DNA of 64,000 bases, from positions 117,986,001-118,050,000 of the forward strand of contig NW_026262690.1 in assembly GCF_021869535.1 (NCBI RefSeq), written 5' to 3'. Made by a program: the position numbers. This DNA is from Mytilus californianus. Its lineage: Eukaryota. How positions within the stretch are numbered: position 1 is the first letter of the stretch; each line of letters begins with the position of its first letter. Of the stretch, positions 54,001-63,000 are shown piece after piece.

Positions 54001-57000
54001 AATACAACCTTTTTTTTTAAATAAAAAACATGTACAACCTGAATTCAATAAGTAAGCAAAATATTCATAAGTCTTTGTCTTATGTTATTGAAAATGCTGC
54101 GTAATTGTAAAGCTTTTCATACATTAAAGTACAAGCTTAACTGCCAAATACAGTGAAAAGCAAAAATATACCTACCACACATGCTGTCAGAAAAAAAAAA
54201 AAAAATAAACTTAACTTTACGTAGTTTCTTTTAGATTATGAAATTCATAACTATTGAATGATGAAACATTCATAAAGGTTCAGAGAACCCGGTTTCTAGT
54301 CTAGCTAGTATTTATCCAGATATTGTTTGTTGATCATGAAGGTTTGACAAAGTTATTGATGGTTAAAAAGAAATTCAACCACAGACTGAACCTAAATTTT
54401 AACACCTTAGACACCAAGGACAGACTGTATGATTACTATGTCTCCCTTCTGTGACAAATTGTTGTATGTTTGACAAAAATGTTTTGAGTTAGTTTCATTT
54501 GTTTACAAAAATTGAATGTTCAAAAACCATTATTAACTTAAGATTTGATCTTGACTACTAAAGTTACTAGACCATGAATCATCTTTCCAGTTGTCTGTCA
54601 CTGGGTTGCTGTCTTTTTGATGTTTACACCACATCTTCTTCTATTCATGATTGAATATGTGTTTCTCATGTTTTCAACTCTTACTTTATATTTTCTAAGC
54701 CCCATTGCTTTTTTAGGCAATGCACTGAAACAATTTTTGTCCCTATATCTCTCATTATTTTTTTAAACACATCTTCCATACACTTCTTGTAAAATATTTT
54801 GACATTTTGTGCATATTTAATACTTTTTCATACAGTTCAGCATATATATGAAAATCAAGAGACATTGTTATTTGTCAAAAATTCTAATTTCTAAAATACT
54901 AGAACCTAAAAAAATTCCAAAAATCCAAAAAACAACAAAACAACAAAACAAAAAACAAACACACACACACACCTTTCTTGATTTTTGTTTAATTTTAATG
55001 TATTATACATTAGCTGTTGAAAAAGACTTCATTTTTAAAATGATTAATTTAGAATCTTAGCCCGGAACATCCTTAATCATAAATCTGCTCATTTTATAAA
55101 TCTTTTTAAGTTGAGAGATTGTACTAAAGGCTTTAATATTCATACTGACCTTACTGGAGCCCATCATTTTAGGGCCATCCCAAAATTGTCTGGTTTTGGG
55201 GGCTGGGTACTCAAATTTATCAATTGTGGAGGTAAAATTTTTCTTAGAATTTTTTAAGAATTATTAGTAAAATGGAAATTTTATATTAGGGGTGGTTAGG
55301 GCTATTCCATTAAAATGTATGTGGGAGGGTAGGAAGGGACTTTCAAAATATCCCTACAACCAAGAACCATTTTTTAGATAATTTTGCATAATGGTAATAG
55401 ACGCATACTGAAAAAAGACCCATGACCCACATTCAATAATTAAACTTCCCTTCCTACCCTCCCACATACATTTTAATGGAATAGCCCTTAGGGCCCAAAA
55501 AAAGGTGACTCATATGCCCCCAATGTGTTTAATTCTAGAAGAGCCCTTAGTTAATCTTTTGAATGGTTTTTAGATATTAACTGATAAAATAAGACAAATT
55601 ACAGATGTTTAGATTGAGTTTTGTGAGGATCTTTCAATATAATAACCAACAGCATATTTTGAATACAACATAAAAATGGATCTATTGTTCTGGCAATTTT
55701 GAATTCCTACATACATCAGATATTTTTGCTAAAGCTGCTTTACAACTATTGTCATCTTTGGCACAACAGGAGATAACATGAAGATATGGTGAACTTGGGA
55801 AGTTTGTAGTCTTCTCTATTGCTTCTGCTTTCTCACCTAAAAATATAAATTCTAGAAGAATAAATTTTTAAGAGCTGAATTTTATGGTAAAATTGTGACT
55901 TAATAACATGTGGTCATCATCACAGTTTATTACATAATATAAGAACCAAACGGAACTTCTCGGGAATCCTGCACAGAATGTATGGATAAATGTTTTTGTA
56001 AGAAATCATACACAAAACATAGCTATCGAAACTGATTTTCATAATTATATAGTTTTAATAAAAAGCCATTTTTGATAACCTTATAAAATCCTTGTTATTT
56101 TTTCATAGTTTTTAAAAGAAAAAAGGTGACAATGTTAAATGTATGAAAATTCTAGAGAGAATCATTTCCTGCCAAATTTTTAATGGCTTTATATATCTCA
56201 AAAACAAGGATATGGATTTTTCACTTTTTTCAGCTTTTTTAGTTTCCATTATTTATATACTATCAATTTGTAACCGTTTTTAAAAAAAACTTGTTACAGC
56301 AGCCAGCATGCTTAATTTCATCAAACTGTCAATCACTGAAATCGCCATCTGATTCATAGTAAGGATGAACAAGGTTTGACACATCAAAATAAGGTCTATG
56401 TAGTGTTAAAAGCAATTAAGATTTTTGGCAAAAAATGCACTGAAAGAAAACATTTTCATAACTTTATAAAGTAAATTTTCTTTGAAATTTGGCATATTGC
56501 AAGGTGGTTGAATGTATGTTAAAAACAGCGCTGATTGTTTTTCTTCATCCTTACTAATACTTTCACAAATCAATGAAAGATGTTTGTACTTCACTTTTCT
56601 GTAATGCCTATAACTCAAATTATTAACTTTTGAATTTCCAACAGCTTGGGATCCATCTTTCAAGATTCAAGATTCAAGATTCTTTATTTCTCAAACACTA
56701 TGCATATAGTTACAATGGTACAAAGAAGTTCATCAAAAGTTATAACATAACATAAACACACATGACAAGATGAGAAGAAAAAATAAAATAAAACAAAATA
56801 ACACAGTACTGGCAAAGAGTGGTGATTAACCAGGAAGACTTGCTTGAAAAGTTATAACCCTGATAAATTTGCACAGCTTTTTTAACTTATTTTTTAATTT
56901 TAACTGAAATAGTTTTCCAAACTTTAGTATATTACTTCTGTGCAAGAAAAAAAGTATCCAAATATTGTGCTCGAAAGTTTGTCAAAGAACTACATTGCAA

Positions 57001-60042: not shown

Positions 60043-63000
60043 GGGCCTGATGGGTTATTTTCGTTCTTCGTGATTGGCACATTTTCACTAGCGTGATCCG
60101 TTTTTCTACAGATTTTTTTTTTTTTTTATATTTTCGTGATCCGTGATCATTGAAATTTATTTTCCATGAATCATGATTGACAAAAAAATCAACTCGTGAA
60201 TCGTGATGAGACCCCCCCATCAGGCCCCTCATATATAATATAAATGCCTAAGAATGTAACTTTAACACATGAATGAGTGTTATAAAAATAGTTTTTATAT
60301 TTTGTATATTCATGCAATATTTCGCTAAACAAATGAGCTTAATAAGGTGTGTGCAGCCGTCCAGGTAAAAACCGGATGCTTTAAAGAAATGTTTGCAGCT
60401 TATTGTACATGTCTTTTAAATATATTTTTGCAGCTTATTGTACATTGCGATTCTTAAATCAAAACAAATAATTGTGTTAGTTAAAAAGCAAGAAGTTCAA
60501 GATTTACTTCTTTGGTTTTGGATAAATCTATATATATATATATATAAAAAGGGGGGTCCTACATGTAGCTCTATAAAGATGACTCATATTAATTTTTCAT
60601 TGTACCTGCACCGCTTTTCCCGAGCAACAATACTTTTTGTGGAAAGTCTATGACATTGTTTATATCAGGTCTTGTGCATGCCAGTCCCATCTACATTATA
60701 ATGTCACTAAATTTTATATGTTTCCCAAATATTCAACTTCTGATTGTTTATGTTGGAGACGCAAGGGAGATAACCAGGAGATGAAAATATTACTTAAAAC
60801 CCAAAAGGATATTTTTAATAAAGACGAATAGCCACGGTCATGGAAAGTCATGTAAAATCTATGAACAGGTAATTTACCCTTCCGGAGCACCTGAGATCAC
60901 CCCCAGTTTTTGTCTCAGGGCAACATGGGATTTTGGGTACAGTTGTGCAGCTGGGATTTAAAAAACACCCCCCATTCATATATTGAATAATTGTGAAATC
61001 CCTATCTATACATATATTTCACAGCGAAATCATAACCCATTCATATATTTATCAGCTCAAATAGTACCTAAATATAATATCACAATTGGTCAATTTCTAC
61101 CTATTGATATATTTCCTCAATAAAATTGCACCCCATTGATATATTTGACGTATCAAAAAAGGGACCCATTCCAGCGGCACATATGTATATACCTTCATAT
61201 AGGAAGAGACCCCCCGTGGCTTCCTCCACCTCATTTTTAGTCTTATACGTCGAATTTGACATAAGCCGTGATCTCAGTATCAGAATCTATGACAAACGAG
61301 ACGATTTTAATTTTGAAATTATCACCTTAGTAGCAATATCCCAACTTCACCTGCATATGGGATATACATTTCCCAACTCATTCGGTATTCAAGAGCTTGC
61401 AGCTGCTACTCAGACTTTATAAAACGTCACCAGTGTCCGAGCAGAAAGTTGATGAACCAGGGTTATGTGAAAGAACGTCTCGTCCTTTTTCTAAAAAAGT
61501 TCATCGGAAGATACCAAGACCTTGTTGATAAATATTCCGCATCAACTCCACAAATAATACATGATGGTCTTGAGGTATAGATTCTAGGTACTGATGTTGT
61601 TTATCATCTTAATTACGTTTATTTGTCTTTGTAAATTATTAACCTGTTTAGTTCATTTTTGATAATATCCTTTTGGCGTGGCTCGGTACTTATACATCCC
61701 GCCATTGTGTTGTTGTGCTATGGTCATTTTTTGCAATCTTGTCTTTCATTTTTGCTTATGTGCTTTGTCTATATGCCATTTTGTTTTTCTTTTATGACAT
61801 ATTTGTTTGTTTTTATAGTGATTAAGATTATAACACAATTTTGACTGCTGTATCCCTATTTTTGACATTTTTACCTATTATGTCTGTTTGTTTTGTTCAC
61901 ACATTGTTGTCAATATTATCGACTGTCATACAAGTAAGAGGTTTAGCTAGCTATAAAACCAGGTTTAATCCACCATTTTCTACATAAGGAAATGCCTGTA
62001 CCAAGTCAGAAATACGACAGTTGTTTTCCATTCGTTTGATGTGTTTGAGCTTTTAATTTTGACCGTTTCCGTTTTGAATTTTCCATGGAGTTCGGTATTT
62101 TTGTTATTCAGTTACTTTTTATCCGTTTTCAAAAGTGTGAATCAGCTTTTAGGGAAAAAATAAGACTATTTTTAATTCCAAAACAAAAGAAATTATTGTA
62201 GAAAACAGGGATGTTCTTGGAAAAAGTTGTTGAAAGAGCGAAAGGAACGTCAGGGAAGGAAAATTAACACTAGAGAAGAAAGAGTTACAAAAGGGAATAG
62301 TATTAATAAAAAAATGTCCTATTTATCTTCAGATTTTAAGCACTTTTTAAATGTAATTCTTATAATTGTCAAAAATAGAAATAGCAGTTTCATTTAGTAA
62401 TATATTATTTATATTATATATCAAAGTAGTACAAACAGAAGAAGCTTAGTATACCCTACTCGACAAGGATGCGTTGGGTATTACGTTTTTGACCCGTCCG
62501 TCAGTCCGTCAATCCTTTTCTTGTCATCGCAACAGCTCTGAAAAAGTAAAATAACAAAAATACCGTACTTCAAGGAAAATTCAAAACGGAAAGTCCTTTA
62601 TCAAACGATAAAATCAAAAGCTCAAACACATTAAACGAATGGAAAACAACTGTCATATTCCTGACTTGGTACAGGCATAACAAAATTTCATGAAACTTTG
62701 TACATAATAAGGACATACTATATAGATGTGCATTTCGACAGGAAATTAGGATTCTATTTTTTTTTATAAGTTATGCCCCTTTGAACTTAGAATTTTGGCC
62801 TAAATATACTACTGCAACAGTTTGTCATCATGCACAACTCCTTTGAAATCACACATTGTAGATAATAAGATTGATTGATTGATTGTTGGTTGCCAAACGT
62901 CCAGTGGCAACTATTTCATGCATGTTCAGGACGAGAACAAATTAACAATACAAACAATAGGAAGGTCCTGTAATAGAGGCCGTTCGGGATGAAGGTTGGG

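What the first reader, a model, noticed from the sequence alone, without database searches (positions are those of the whole stretch)
54713..60690. Atypical Arf-family GTPase with rewired switch regions
Seen: intact G1 (GKSGAGKTS), switch I Thr, NKSD and CAK, plus N-terminal MG with Cys5. Relative to Arf1, I49-G50 become E-D (PTEDFNVE), WDVGGQD becomes WDLSGAP (catalytic Q71 to Ala), and the DxxR Arg99 is Val. Known: Q71 loss blocks GAP-stimulated hydrolysis; ARL15 has Ala there but otherwise differs from this protein. Inference: a lineage-specific, hydrolysis-deficient or GEF/GAP-independent Arf paralogue, possibly myristoylated and palmitoylated, with clean splice signals suggesting function.
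Basis: partly seen in the sequence, partly recalled or inferred. Interest (0 to 1): 0.65.

Follow-up and report, generated by a model that had tools for sequence, protein, structure and literature searches.

The report
Mussel Arf-like GTPase lacking catalytic glutamine
This is an intact four-exon mussel gene for a small Arf-type molecular switch that keeps its GTP-binding parts but has lost the residues normally used to switch itself off, and it belongs to an unstudied family found across bivalves and abalone.

Summary
A four-exon gene lies on the minus strand, with coding sequence from 60690 down to 55682. All three introns are GT..AG and phase 1. It encodes a 184-residue Arf-family GTPase.

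The gene is not a one-off. It belongs to a strongly supported family (100/99) with members in mussels, scallops, Solemya and Haliotis.

Family-wide features:
- An MGxxC[ST] N-terminus with no amphipathic helix.
- W in place of Arf1 L37.
- Mostly acidic or polar residues at I49/G50.
- Ser at G69.
- No Gln at Q71 (0 of 14, and the residue varies).
- Loss of both partners of the D26–R99 salt bridge.

The mussel proteins keep the P-loop, the switch I Thr, DxxG, NKxD and CAK.

Best reading: a doubly lipid-anchored, GTP-binding Arf-like switch without canonical Gln-dependent hydrolysis.

I could not test whether it equals the named but undescribed Arl19 or Arl20 groups. Biochemistry and dN/dS are also untested. 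Interest is moderate.

The parts
60606..60690 (-). Coding exon 1 (85 nt). It holds the ATG at 60690, the MGLAC N-terminus (Gly2, Cys5), strand beta-1 and the first half of the P-loop. It ends in the first base of a split Gly codon.
   Evidence: donor CAG|GTACAA. tblastn of P0005 residues 1-29 hit here, E 1.2e-13. 27 of 28 residues are identical to P0005 and 28 of 28 to P0006.
59594..60605 (-). Intron 1 (1012 nt, phase 1, GT..AG). It contains a (TA)n run and a short element with 22-nt perfect terminal inverted repeats.
   Evidence: arms 60033-60054 and 60216-60237.
59414..59593 (-). Coding exon 2 (180 nt). It holds GKTS, helix alpha-1 with Trp37, switch I (PTEDFNVE), the interswitch, and switch II (WDLSGAP...RWRQFYHGTN).
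   Evidence: Pfam Arf 35.2 bits. Alignment to ARF1 chain residues 30-85. 58 of 59 residues are identical to P0005.
57817..59413 (-). Intron 2 (1597 nt, phase 1, GT..AG).
57682..57816 (-). Coding exon 3 (135 nt). It holds strand beta-4 (LVIVVDSSDKDV, with Val at the Arf1 Arg99 position), helix alpha-3 and the G4 motif NKSD.
   Evidence: Pfam Arf 23.1 bits. 40 of 44 residues are identical to P0005.
55837..57681 (-). Intron 3 (1845 nt, phase 1, GT..AG).
55682..55836 (-). Coding exon 4 (coding part, 155 nt including the TAG stop at 55682-55684). It holds the G5 motif (SCCAKDD) and the C-terminal helix. The internal GAT|GTATGT is not used as a donor.
   Evidence: 50 of 50 residues are identical to P0005 residues 135-184, including the C-terminus. 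tblastn E 9e-30.
54713..55681 (-). It is probably 3' UTR and flank, with no coding evidence. It has no AATAAA but six ATTAAA sites on the gene strand, and it holds a 49-nt-arm inverted repeat.
   Evidence: only a chance hit, E 3.4; arms 55298-55346 and 55440-55488.

Best explanation
The locus is a functional, expressed gene for a 184-residue Arf-like small GTPase. It is the mussel member of an uncharacterised family found at least in bivalves (mussels, scallops, Solemya) and a gastropod (Haliotis).

**Likely mechanism**
- The protein is held on membranes by N-terminal myristate on Gly2 plus palmitate on Cys5. It does not use the GTP-gated amphipathic helix that Arfs use.
- It binds Mg-GTP through intact G1, switch I Thr, DxxG, NKSD and CAK motifs.
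- It cannot use the canonical Arf hydrolysis route. The catalytic Gln is gone and the position is free to vary. The P-loop Asp and its Arg99 partner are both replaced.
- It is therefore expected to stay GTP-bound for long periods. Control would come from expression, from the palmitoylation cycle, or from family-specific partners, rather than from Sec7 GEFs and ArfGAPs. The usual docking surface for those (alpha-1, I49/G50, switch II) is rewritten.

**Shown:** the gene structure, Arf-family membership, the motif states, family monophyly and the taxa holding it, and the lack of a predicted N-terminal helix.

**Inferred:** lipidation, GTP binding, slow hydrolysis and altered partners.
For: **Gene model and identity**
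- Four exons with canonical splice sites.
- The exon translations abut in P0005 at residues 1-28, 30-88, 90-133 and 135-184. Each missing residue equals the split codon. 175 of 181 residues are identical to P0005 and 161 of 181 to M. galloprovincialis P0006.

**Expression (inferred)**
- P0005, P0007 and P0008 sit on contigs of 1195, 971 and 1640 nt. That is far too short for a locus with about 4.5 kb of introns, so they are most likely spliced transcripts.

**Arf family membership**
- Pfam Arf gives 98.1 to 98.9 bits on P0005 and P0006.
- The AlphaFold model of P0005 has pLDDT 82.9 and pTM 0.81.
- It matches Arf1, ARL1 and Arf6 structures. The best is 9qpq_R: E 2e-15, target TM 0.88, rmsd 1.9 A.

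**A distinct family**
- Profile scores for members are 181-274 bits. Generic Arfs score 150 bits or less.
- The 14 family rows form one side of a branch with 100/99 support in a 50-row tree. Mussels and scallops pair at 83/70.

**Motif states, family against 36 other Arf/Arl1-type rows**

| Arf1 position | Family | Others |
|---|---|---|
| Q71 | 0 of 14 are Q | 33 of 36 are Q |
| G69 | S in 13, C in 1 | G in 35 of 36 |
| D26 | S in 11 of 13 | D in 35 of 36 |
| R99 | 0 of 14 are R | 35 of 36 are R |
| L37 | W in 14 of 14 | L, M, V, I or F; never W |

- T, D and G of the nucleotide site are kept in 14 of 14, and GKT in 13 of 13.

**N-terminus**
- M1, G2 and C5 are invariant in the 9-row alignment.
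- Family against others: median helical hydrophobic moment 0.32 against 0.57, hydrophobic fraction 0.20 against 0.38, and median Pro count 1 against 0.
- Model residues 1-14 have pLDDT below 50 and no helix.

**Literature (passages read)**
- ARF1 R99 forms salt bridges with D26. R99C binds GTP as well as wild type but has lower GTPase activity (PMC10620153).
- ARL10, ARL13A/B, ARL15 and ARL16 also lack the switch II Gln and are treated as atypical GTPases or pseudoGTPases (PMC12722892).
Against: - No biochemical or expression measurement exists for this protein or any family member that I could find.
- The lipidation call rests on motif resemblance only. The N-myristoylation consensus is recalled, not run.
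- Loss of Gln does not by itself abolish hydrolysis. A dedicated GAP could supply the catalytic residues, as in the Rap/RapGAP precedent (recalled).
- Three parts of the family (P0027, the two Haliotis proteins, and P0032 in part) have a degraded NKxD. The family as a whole may therefore be drifting towards nucleotide-independent function.
- The structure model is of the 98%-identical proxy P0005, not the window's own joined product. AlphaFold says nothing about nucleotide state.
- The reference set in the tree held only Arf1, Arf6 and Arl1-type sequences.
Confidence: 0.6

Rival explanations
1. It is a normally cycling GTPase. Hydrolysis is supplied in trans by a dedicated, non-Arf-type GAP that brings its own catalytic residue, and a dedicated GEF reloads it. 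The missing Gln then marks a change of regulators, not a loss of cycling.
For: - All nucleotide-binding motifs are intact in the mussel proteins.
- The switch regions are strongly conserved within the family, for example FNVE, D..G, R81 and G86 in 14 of 14 rows. This fits a surface under selection for specific partners.
- A basic residue (R or K) replaces Arf1 L77 in 14 of 14 rows.
Against: - The residue at the Gln position varies freely (A, S, D, V, K, R, C).
- The D26-R99 pair, which supports hydrolysis in ARF1 (PMC10620153, passages), is also gone.
- No candidate GAP or GEF is known or was looked for.
Confidence: 0.2
2. It is not a new group. It is a divergent mollusc member of a group already named in the eukaryote-wide ARF survey: Arl19 or Arl20 (present in holozoans, lost in vertebrates), or one of that paper's 160 unassigned sequences.
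For: - Vargova et al. 2021 (PMC8358228; abstract, section 10 part 1 and passages read) describe Arl19 and Arl20 as Arf1/Arf6-derived groups in invertebrates.
- The closest solved relatives here are Arf6, Arf3p and Arf1.
- After family members, exon 2's best matches are canonical Arf1-type sequences.
Against: - Arl20 members were first taken for Arf1 by BLAST (same paper), whereas this protein scores only 98 bits on Pfam Arf.
- The paper's main text singles out only the red-algal ArlRhodo for combined myristoyl and palmitoyl signals.
- The main text gives no motifs, and molluscs are not named in it.
Confidence: 0.2
3. It is a nucleotide-independent pseudoGTPase scaffold. The fold is kept, but binding and switching no longer matter.
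For: - Some family members have degraded G4 motifs: NTRS in P0027, NQLK in the two Haliotis proteins and TKQD in Solemya.
- By language-model features the nearest Atlas clusters are named ARL16 and ARL15 (score 0.96; a lead only).
Against: - The mussel clade (4 of 4 rows) keeps NKSD, CAK, the switch I Thr and DxxG. The three rows with an N-terminus also keep GxxxxGKT.
- T50, D69 and G72 are invariant in 14 of 14 rows.
Confidence: 0.1
4. It is a decaying or unexpressed gene copy, that is a pseudogene or an annotation artefact.
For: - Only weak points: the gene is flanked by transposon remains.
- The base at -3 of the start codon is T, which by recalled Kozak rules is not optimal, and a start-stop mini-ORF lies just upstream.
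Against: - The 184-codon frame is open across four exons with perfect splice sites.
- The length is the same in M. galloprovincialis.
- Transcript-sized contigs carry the spliced frame.
- Intact relatives exist in bivalves and a gastropod.
- Between the window and P0006 the 20 differences avoid all G motifs.
Confidence: 0.03

Closest known systems
Arf6 / Arf1 (true Arfs; yeast Arf3p)
   Same: - Best sequence matches among solved structures, at 86-89 bits.
- Best fold matches, with target TM 0.88 and rmsd about 1.9 A.
- Same length, Gly2, FNVE interswitch start, interswitch length, W66, NKxD and CAx.
   Different: - No amphipathic N-terminal helix.
- Cys5.
- Two extra residues before switch I.
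- I49-G50 -> E-D, G69 -> S, Q71 -> A, D26 -> S and R99 -> V.
Gln-less atypical ARLs (ARL10, ARL13A/B, ARL15, ARL16)
   Same: - They lack the switch II Gln (PMC12722892, passage).
- ARL15 is S-acylated near its N-terminus (abstracts of PMC8689486 and PMC13196370 in the listing).
- Atlas feature neighbours are named ARL16 and ARL15 (a lead only).
   Different: - None of them appears among the 60 best solved-structure matches, all of which score 75 bits or more.
- The MGxxC[ST] start, the DxSG Ser and Trp37 are, as far as I recall, not features of those proteins. This was not tested here.
- No orthology was shown.
Arl19 and Arl20 of Vargova et al. 2021
   Same: They are Arf1/Arf6-derived, present in invertebrates, absent from vertebrates and uncharacterised (PMC8358228, section 10).
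   Different: Unknown.
ArlRhodo (red-algal Arf-like group)
   Same: It is predicted to be both N-myristoylated and S-palmitoylated, through a Gly/Cys N-terminal configuration (PMC8358228, passages).
   Different: It is restricted to red algae and arose independently. Nothing is known here about its switch II.
Ras A59T and natural GTPases with Ser/Thr at Ras position 59
   Same: The family's conserved Ser sits at the DxxG position equivalent to Ras 59. There a Ser or Thr can take the gamma-phosphate of GTP, which lowers hydrolysis and raises exchange (bioRxiv 10.1101/2021.06.23.449327, passages).
   Different: - That work did not include Arf proteins ('Arf' occurs 0 times in the text).
- In its simulations the Thr kept a contact with Gln61, which is missing here.

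Membership tests
Arf family (Pfam PF00025) | Match to the family profile above the curated cut-off | tested here: met
   Exon 2 scores 35.2 bits and exon 3 scores 23.1 bits against a cut-off of 22.3. Full-length proxies P0005 and P0006 score 98.1 and 98.9 bits.
Arf family (Pfam PF00025) | Nucleotide-binding motifs G1 (GxxxxGKT), switch I Thr, DxxG, NKxD and G5 (C/S-A-x) | tested here: met
   Read directly from the exon translations. Placed against ARF1 and Arf3p.
Arf family (Pfam PF00025) | Arf fold | tested here: met
   The model of proxy P0005 has pLDDT 82.9. The best PDB matches are Arf1, ARL1, ARL3 and Arf6, with target TM 0.81-0.89. The window's own joined product was not folded.
Arf family (Pfam PF00025) | Catalytic Gln after DxxG (Arf1 Q71) | tested here: not met
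   Ala in the window. 0 of 14 family rows have Q, against 33 of 36 other rows.
True Arfs (Arf1/Arf6 class) | Myristoylated amphipathic N-terminal helix | tested here: not met
   Gly2 is present, but the segment is polar with two Pro. Family median hydrophobic moment is 0.32 against 0.57. The model predicts no helix and pLDDT is below 50 for residues 1-14.
True Arfs (Arf1/Arf6 class) | WDVGGQ switch II and the D26-R99 salt bridge | tested here: not met
   The window has WDLSGA, Ser at the D26 position and Val at the R99 position.
ARL15, ARL13, ARL10, ARL16 (Gln-less ARLs) | Orthology (clade membership) | tested here: inconclusive
   None is among the best 60 solved-structure matches, which all score 75 bits or more. 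No named sequences of these groups could be put in the tree. Atlas neighbours named ARL16 and ARL15 are leads only.
Arl19 / Arl20 (Vargova et al. 2021) | Clade membership. For Arl20, also three group-specific intron positions plus one shared with Arf1. | not testable with these tools
   The sequences and intron maps are only in supplements, which are closed. The window's introns fall in the codons for residues 29, 89 and 134, all phase 1, ready for that comparison.
Mollusc MGxxC[ST] / DxSG Arf-like family (defined here) | Monophyly and shared derived residues (C5, W37, S71, no Q73, no Arg at the R99 position) | tested here: met
   The 14 rows form one side of a branch with 100/99 support. The profile score gap is 181-274 bits against 150 or less for generic Arfs.
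Dually acylated proteins (N-myristoyl plus S-palmitoyl) | Gly2 with a small residue at position 6, and a nearby Cys | tested here: inconclusive
   The window has M-G-L-A-C-T. M1, G2 and C5 are invariant in the 9-row alignment. Position 6 is S or T in all 13 rows with an N-terminus. The consensus rule is recalled, and no predictor or experiment was run.

The most novel reading that the evidence does not exclude
The family is a self-modifying switch. With the water-activating Gln gone and a Ser fixed at the position equivalent to Ras 59 (13 of 14 members, Cys in the other), the permanently lipid-anchored GTPase transfers the gamma-phosphate of its bound GTP onto its own Ser71. Autophosphorylation, not GAP-driven hydrolysis, would then set its lifetime, nucleotide exchange and partner choice. 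That would be a natural Arf-type counterpart of what was shown for Ras A59T.
Probability: 0.08. Interest if true: 0.75.

Novelty: new variant of a known kind. Interest (0 to 1): 0.38.

Why it matters
Arf-family switches are textbook examples of GEF/GAP-driven cycling coupled to a myristoyl-helix membrane switch. This family keeps the nucleotide pocket but has lost three things together:
- the catalytic Gln;
- the Asp26-Arg99 brace;
- the amphipathic helix.

In their place it has fixed a Ser in the active site and a dual-acylation signal. That gives a natural experiment on how an Arf fold can work outside the classical cycle, in animals where no atypical Arl has been studied. It also adds a phylum-level group to the catalogue of Gln-less ARLs.

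The practical gain is modest. The gene is one uncharacterised paralogue among many divergent Arf-family sequences, and nothing links it yet to a phenotype.

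Tried and rejected
**Fifth exon.** A fifth exon near 54713 is rejected. The frame runs to a stop at 55682. Both 184-aa relatives end there. tblastn found only a chance hit (E 3.4) below the stop.

**Tandem paralogues in the window.** None. All other tblastn hits had E of 0.26 or more.

**Pfam on the two short end exons.** No match for the 28-aa and 50-aa pieces. They are too short to count against the model.

**Cluster look-up for the unnamed relatives.** The origin of P0026, P0027 and P0033 therefore stays unknown, and I cannot say whether the family reaches beyond molluscs.

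**Atlas look-alike search.** It holds no cluster of the family itself. The neighbours are named ARL16, ARL15, Rab-like 5 and IFT22, which I treat as leads only.

**Literature.**
- Searches found no paper describing this family or any mollusc Arf-like protein with these motifs.
- The Vargova survey's main text does not name molluscs.

**Left undone.**
- The window's exons were searched one by one and were never joined into a spliced protein. Full-length work used the database proteins P0005 and P0006 as stand-ins.
- Complex prediction: no binding claim is made, so the job was not used.

Full report
**What is in the sequence**

The region is AT-rich eukaryotic DNA (GC about 0.30), and the window holds no N. 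On the minus strand four open stretches carry an Arf-like reading frame.

Reading the junctions by eye and checking them by script gives this model:
- Exon 1: 60690..60606.
- Exon 2: 59593..59414.
- Exon 3: 57816..57682.
- Exon 4: 55836..55682, including a TAG stop.

The donors are CAG|GTACAA, ATG|GTATTT and CTG|GTAGGT. The acceptors follow pyrimidine tracts. The introns are 1012, 1597 and 1845 nt, and all three are phase 1. The in-frame exon translations were kept as P0001-P0004.

I did not build the joined spliced protein. Where a full-length sequence was needed I used database proteins found with exon 2.

**Check of the observation**

- Pfam's Arf model matched 2 of the 4 exon translations above its cut-off of 22.3 bits. 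Exon 2 scored 35.2 bits and exon 3 scored 23.1 bits. The two short end exons matched nothing.
- Against solved structures, exon 2 aligned to ARF1 residues 30-85, with a best E of 3.4e-10 among 97 matched sequences.
TIGFNVE becomes TEDFNVE, and WDVGGQD becomes WDLSGAP.
- Two extra residues sit before switch I. The interswitch length is unchanged.
- The alignment to yeast Arf3p puts Val opposite the Arg of DxxR.
- GKSGAGKTS (across the exon 1/2 junction), NKSD, CAK, and MG with Cys5 are all there.

**The 3' end**

A word-index search with exon 2 for longer proteins returned 2 proteins among 32 candidates. Both are 184 aa:
- P0005, unnamed source, on a 1195-nt contig, 98% identical over exon 2.
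- P0006, NCBI 'uncharacterized protein LOC143069614 [Mytilus galloprovincialis]', on a 112-Mb contig, 88% identical over exon 2.

The four exon translations align to P0005 at residues 1-28, 30-88, 90-133 and 135-184. Each skipped residue equals the split codon. Identity is 175 of 181 residues to P0005 and 161 of 181 to P0006. Exon 4 matches P0005 in 50 of 50 residues up to its last residue.

The frame therefore reads through the GAT|GTATGT site to the stop at 55682. No exon near 54713 is needed. tblastn found only a chance hit there (E 3.4) and no second copy anywhere in the window.

The window evidently comes from a Mytilus-like mussel. This is an inference from those identities.

**Expression**

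I could not see reads. However, P0005, P0007 and P0008 sit on contigs of 1195, 971 and 1640 nt. The genomic locus here needs about 5 kb. For P0005 at least, an uninterrupted 184-codon frame on a 1.2-kb contig is most simply a spliced transcript (inference).

**The family**

An exhaustive phmmer search with exon 2 against 1.84 billion representatives gave 1018 proteins at E of 0.001 or less, 17 at 1e-10 or less, and 1 at 1e-30 or less.

Beyond the mussel sequences, several 172-237-aa proteins shared the odd features. A nine-row alignment of them (A2) had M1, G2, C5, GKT, T50, FNVE, D69, G72 and R81 invariant.

A profile search with A2 returned 226 proteins at E of 1e-10 or less among 4029 candidates.

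| Hit | Score (bits) |
|---|---|
| Mytilus-type proteins | 274, 274, 257, 181 |
| Scallops: Ylistrum, Mizuhopecten, Pecten, Argopecten | 255, 242, 242, 238 |
| Solemya velum | 250 |
| Haliotis rubra, H. rufescens | 229, 210 |
| Two-domain Saprolegnia protein | 179 |
| Ordinary Arfs | 150 or less |

The NCBI names of the members are inconsistent: 'ADP-ribosylation factor-like', 'ADP-ribosylation factor 1-like', 'ARL11' and 'uncharacterized'. That is what one expects when there is no clear named orthologue.

A motif survey of all 266 proteins in hand found the family signature in 18 of them. The signature is a non-Ile, non-Gly pair after the switch I Thr, plus [WF]D[LI][SCN]G followed by a residue other than Gln.

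In a 50-row maximum-likelihood tree the 14 family rows form one side of a branch with 100/99 support.
- The four Mytilus-type rows group at 100/100.
- The scallops group at 99/98.
- Mussels and scallops pair at 83/70, as the species tree would predict.
- Several family rows are long branches. The 36 outside rows are only Arf1, Arf6 and Arl1-type sequences, so the tree shows that the family is distinct, not where it came from.

**What is conserved and what is lost (14 family rows against 36 others)**

Kept:
- GKT (13 of 13).
- Switch I Thr, FNVE, and the D and G of DxxG (14 of 14 each).
- The full NKxD in 10 of 14, including all four Mytilus-type rows.

Changed, by Arf1 position:

| Arf1 position | Family | Others |
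|---|---|---|
| D26 | S in 11 of 13 | D in 35 of 36 |
| L37 | W in 14 of 14 | L, M, V, I or F; never W |
| I49 | E, D, S, P or L | I, V or L |
| G50 | D, E, S, or G in 2 | G in 34 of 36 |
| G69 | S in 13, C in 1 | G in 35 of 36 |
| Q71 | A4, S4, D2, V, K, R, C; never Q | Q in 33 of 36 |
| L77 | R or K in 14 of 14 | L, Y or Q |
| R99 | never R | R in 35 of 36 |

The fixed novelties are the Ser before the DxxG glycine, Trp37, and the paired loss of D26 and R99.

That pair forms salt bridges in ARF1. R99C leaves GTP binding intact but lowers GTPase activity and stability (PMC10620153, passages read).

**N-terminus**

All 13 family rows with an N-terminus start MG. 12 of them have Cys at position 5, and the other has Cys at position 7. 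Ser or Thr follows at position 6.

The segment before strand beta-1 differs from that of the other 36 rows:

| Measure (median) | Family | Others |
|---|---|---|
| Best helical hydrophobic moment | 0.32 | 0.57 |
| Hydrophobic fraction | 0.20 | 0.38 |
| Pro count | 1 | 0 |

The AlphaFold model of P0005 (alignment of 50 rows, mean pLDDT 82.9, pTM 0.81) has no helix there. Residues 1-14 have pLDDT below 50, while the G domain is confidently Arf-like.

Foldseek's best matches are Arf1, ARL1, ARL3 and Arf6 structures. The best is 9qpq_R, with E 2e-15, target TM 0.88, rmsd 1.9 A and 32% identity.

The start fits the usual Gly2 / small-residue-6 rule for N-myristoylation, with a nearby Cys for palmitate. 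That rule is recalled, and no predictor was run.

**Mechanism**

Taken together, the protein should bind Mg-GTP and sit on membranes through two lipids rather than through a GTP-gated helix. It should lack the canonical Gln-dependent hydrolysis that ArfGAPs stimulate. It also presents a rewritten alpha-1, switch I and switch II surface to partners.

I therefore read it as a long-lived, lipid-anchored Arf-like switch. Control would come from expression, from the acylation cycle or from family-specific partners (confidence about 0.6 for the whole statement; the gene and family identity alone are far more certain).

Rivals:
- A dedicated non-canonical GAP and GEF pair.
- Membership of the named but undescribed Arl19 or Arl20 groups.
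- A nucleotide-independent pseudoGTPase. The decayed NKxD in P0027, the two Haliotis proteins and Solemya points this way for parts of the family, but not for mussels.
- A dead gene, which is very unlikely.

**Comparison with what is known**

- Gln-less Arf-family members already exist: ARL10, ARL13A/B, ARL15 and ARL16 (PMC12722892, passage). The loss by itself is therefore not new.
- None of these appears among the 60 best solved-structure matches. Those are all ARF1, 3, 4, 5, 6, ARL1 or ARL3, at 75-89 bits.
- The Atlas feature search named ARL16 and ARL15 clusters as nearest (0.96). That is a lead without an alignment.
- Vargova et al. 2021 (PMC8358228) define Arl19 and Arl20 as Arf1/6-derived groups kept in invertebrates and lost in vertebrates. 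They left 160 of more than 2,000 sequences unassigned. I read the abstract, section 10 part 1 and searched passages.
The main text names no mollusc. Whether this family is Arl19, Arl20 or unassigned stays open.
- Searches found no paper on this family.

**Boldest reading not excluded**

The fixed Ser lies at the position equivalent to Ras 59. There a Ser or Thr can take the gamma-phosphate of bound GTP, which lowers hydrolysis and raises exchange. The authors of that work suggest this may replace GEF control in some natural GTPases (bioRxiv 10.1101/2021.06.23.449327, passages read).

Their text does not mention Arf proteins, and their simulations involve Gln61, which is absent here. I give this reading about 8%.

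**What stayed unchecked**

- dN/dS and synteny (no eukaryotic sequence collection was available).
- Read-level expression.
- A phylogeny with Arl4, 11, 14, 15, 16, 19 and 20.
- Any biochemistry.
- The joined spliced product of the window itself.

**Verdict**

This is a new variant of a known kind and of moderate interest.

Noticed in passing
window 5433-5855 (-): An open stretch holding a homeodomain exon (Pfam Homeodomain, 52.2 bits, E 5.4e-14). A homeobox gene lies about 50 kb from the Arf-like gene.
   Followed up: partly
window 44836-45153 (+) and 47322-48092 (+): A cyclin-like exon. It matches Pfam CycT2-like_C at 25.7 bits, just under the cut-off of 27. It is followed by a 256-codon open stretch rich in Q, P and Y with no Pfam match. 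This is probably one cyclin T/K-type gene on the plus strand.
   Followed up: partly
window 51406-53121 (-): A 422-codon open frame with DUF1759 (119 bits) and a weak DUF1758 peptidase match. I recall this as the gag/protease pattern of BEL/Pao-type retrotransposons. It lies about 2.5 kb below the gene's stop.
   Followed up: partly
window 36145-37556 (-): Four adjoining 100-130-codon open stretches in a block with strong strand asymmetry (AT skew -0.33 and GC skew -0.19 in 36-38 kb). The two stretches tested gave no Pfam match. This may be a degraded mobile element.
   Followed up: partly
window 60033-60237 (intron 1) and 55298-55488 (below the stop): Two short inverted-repeat elements. One has 22-nt perfect terminal repeats beside a (TA)n run. 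The other has 49-nt arms, 94% complementary, 93 nt apart. Both look like miniature transposons.
   Followed up: no
window 60691-60697 (-): A start-stop mini-ORF (ATG TAG) directly abuts the start codon, and a possible acceptor (TTTAG) lies about 17 nt upstream. The 5' UTR may include a further non-coding exon.
   Followed up: no
database proteins P0011, P0014, P0017, P0020, P0023, P0024, P0028: Many 330-400-aa proteins of unnamed origin carry two Arf domains in tandem. In several (for example P0014, P0020, P0023, P0024) one of the two domains lacks the switch II Gln.
   Followed up: no
database protein P0251: A separate 191-aa Arf-like protein of unnamed origin. It starts MGNLCS and has WDVRGE in switch II (no Gln). 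In the tree it falls outside the mollusc family, at the base of the other rows, on a long branch.
   Followed up: no
family members P0027, P0050, P0161, P0032: The guanine-specificity motif NKxD is degraded in part of the family (NTRS, NQLK twice, TKQD). The mussel and scallop proteins keep it. The family may include members that no longer bind guanine nucleotides.
   Followed up: partly
window 61108-61422 (+): A 104-codon open stretch just upstream of the gene's start, with no Pfam match. I did not establish what it is.
   Followed up: no
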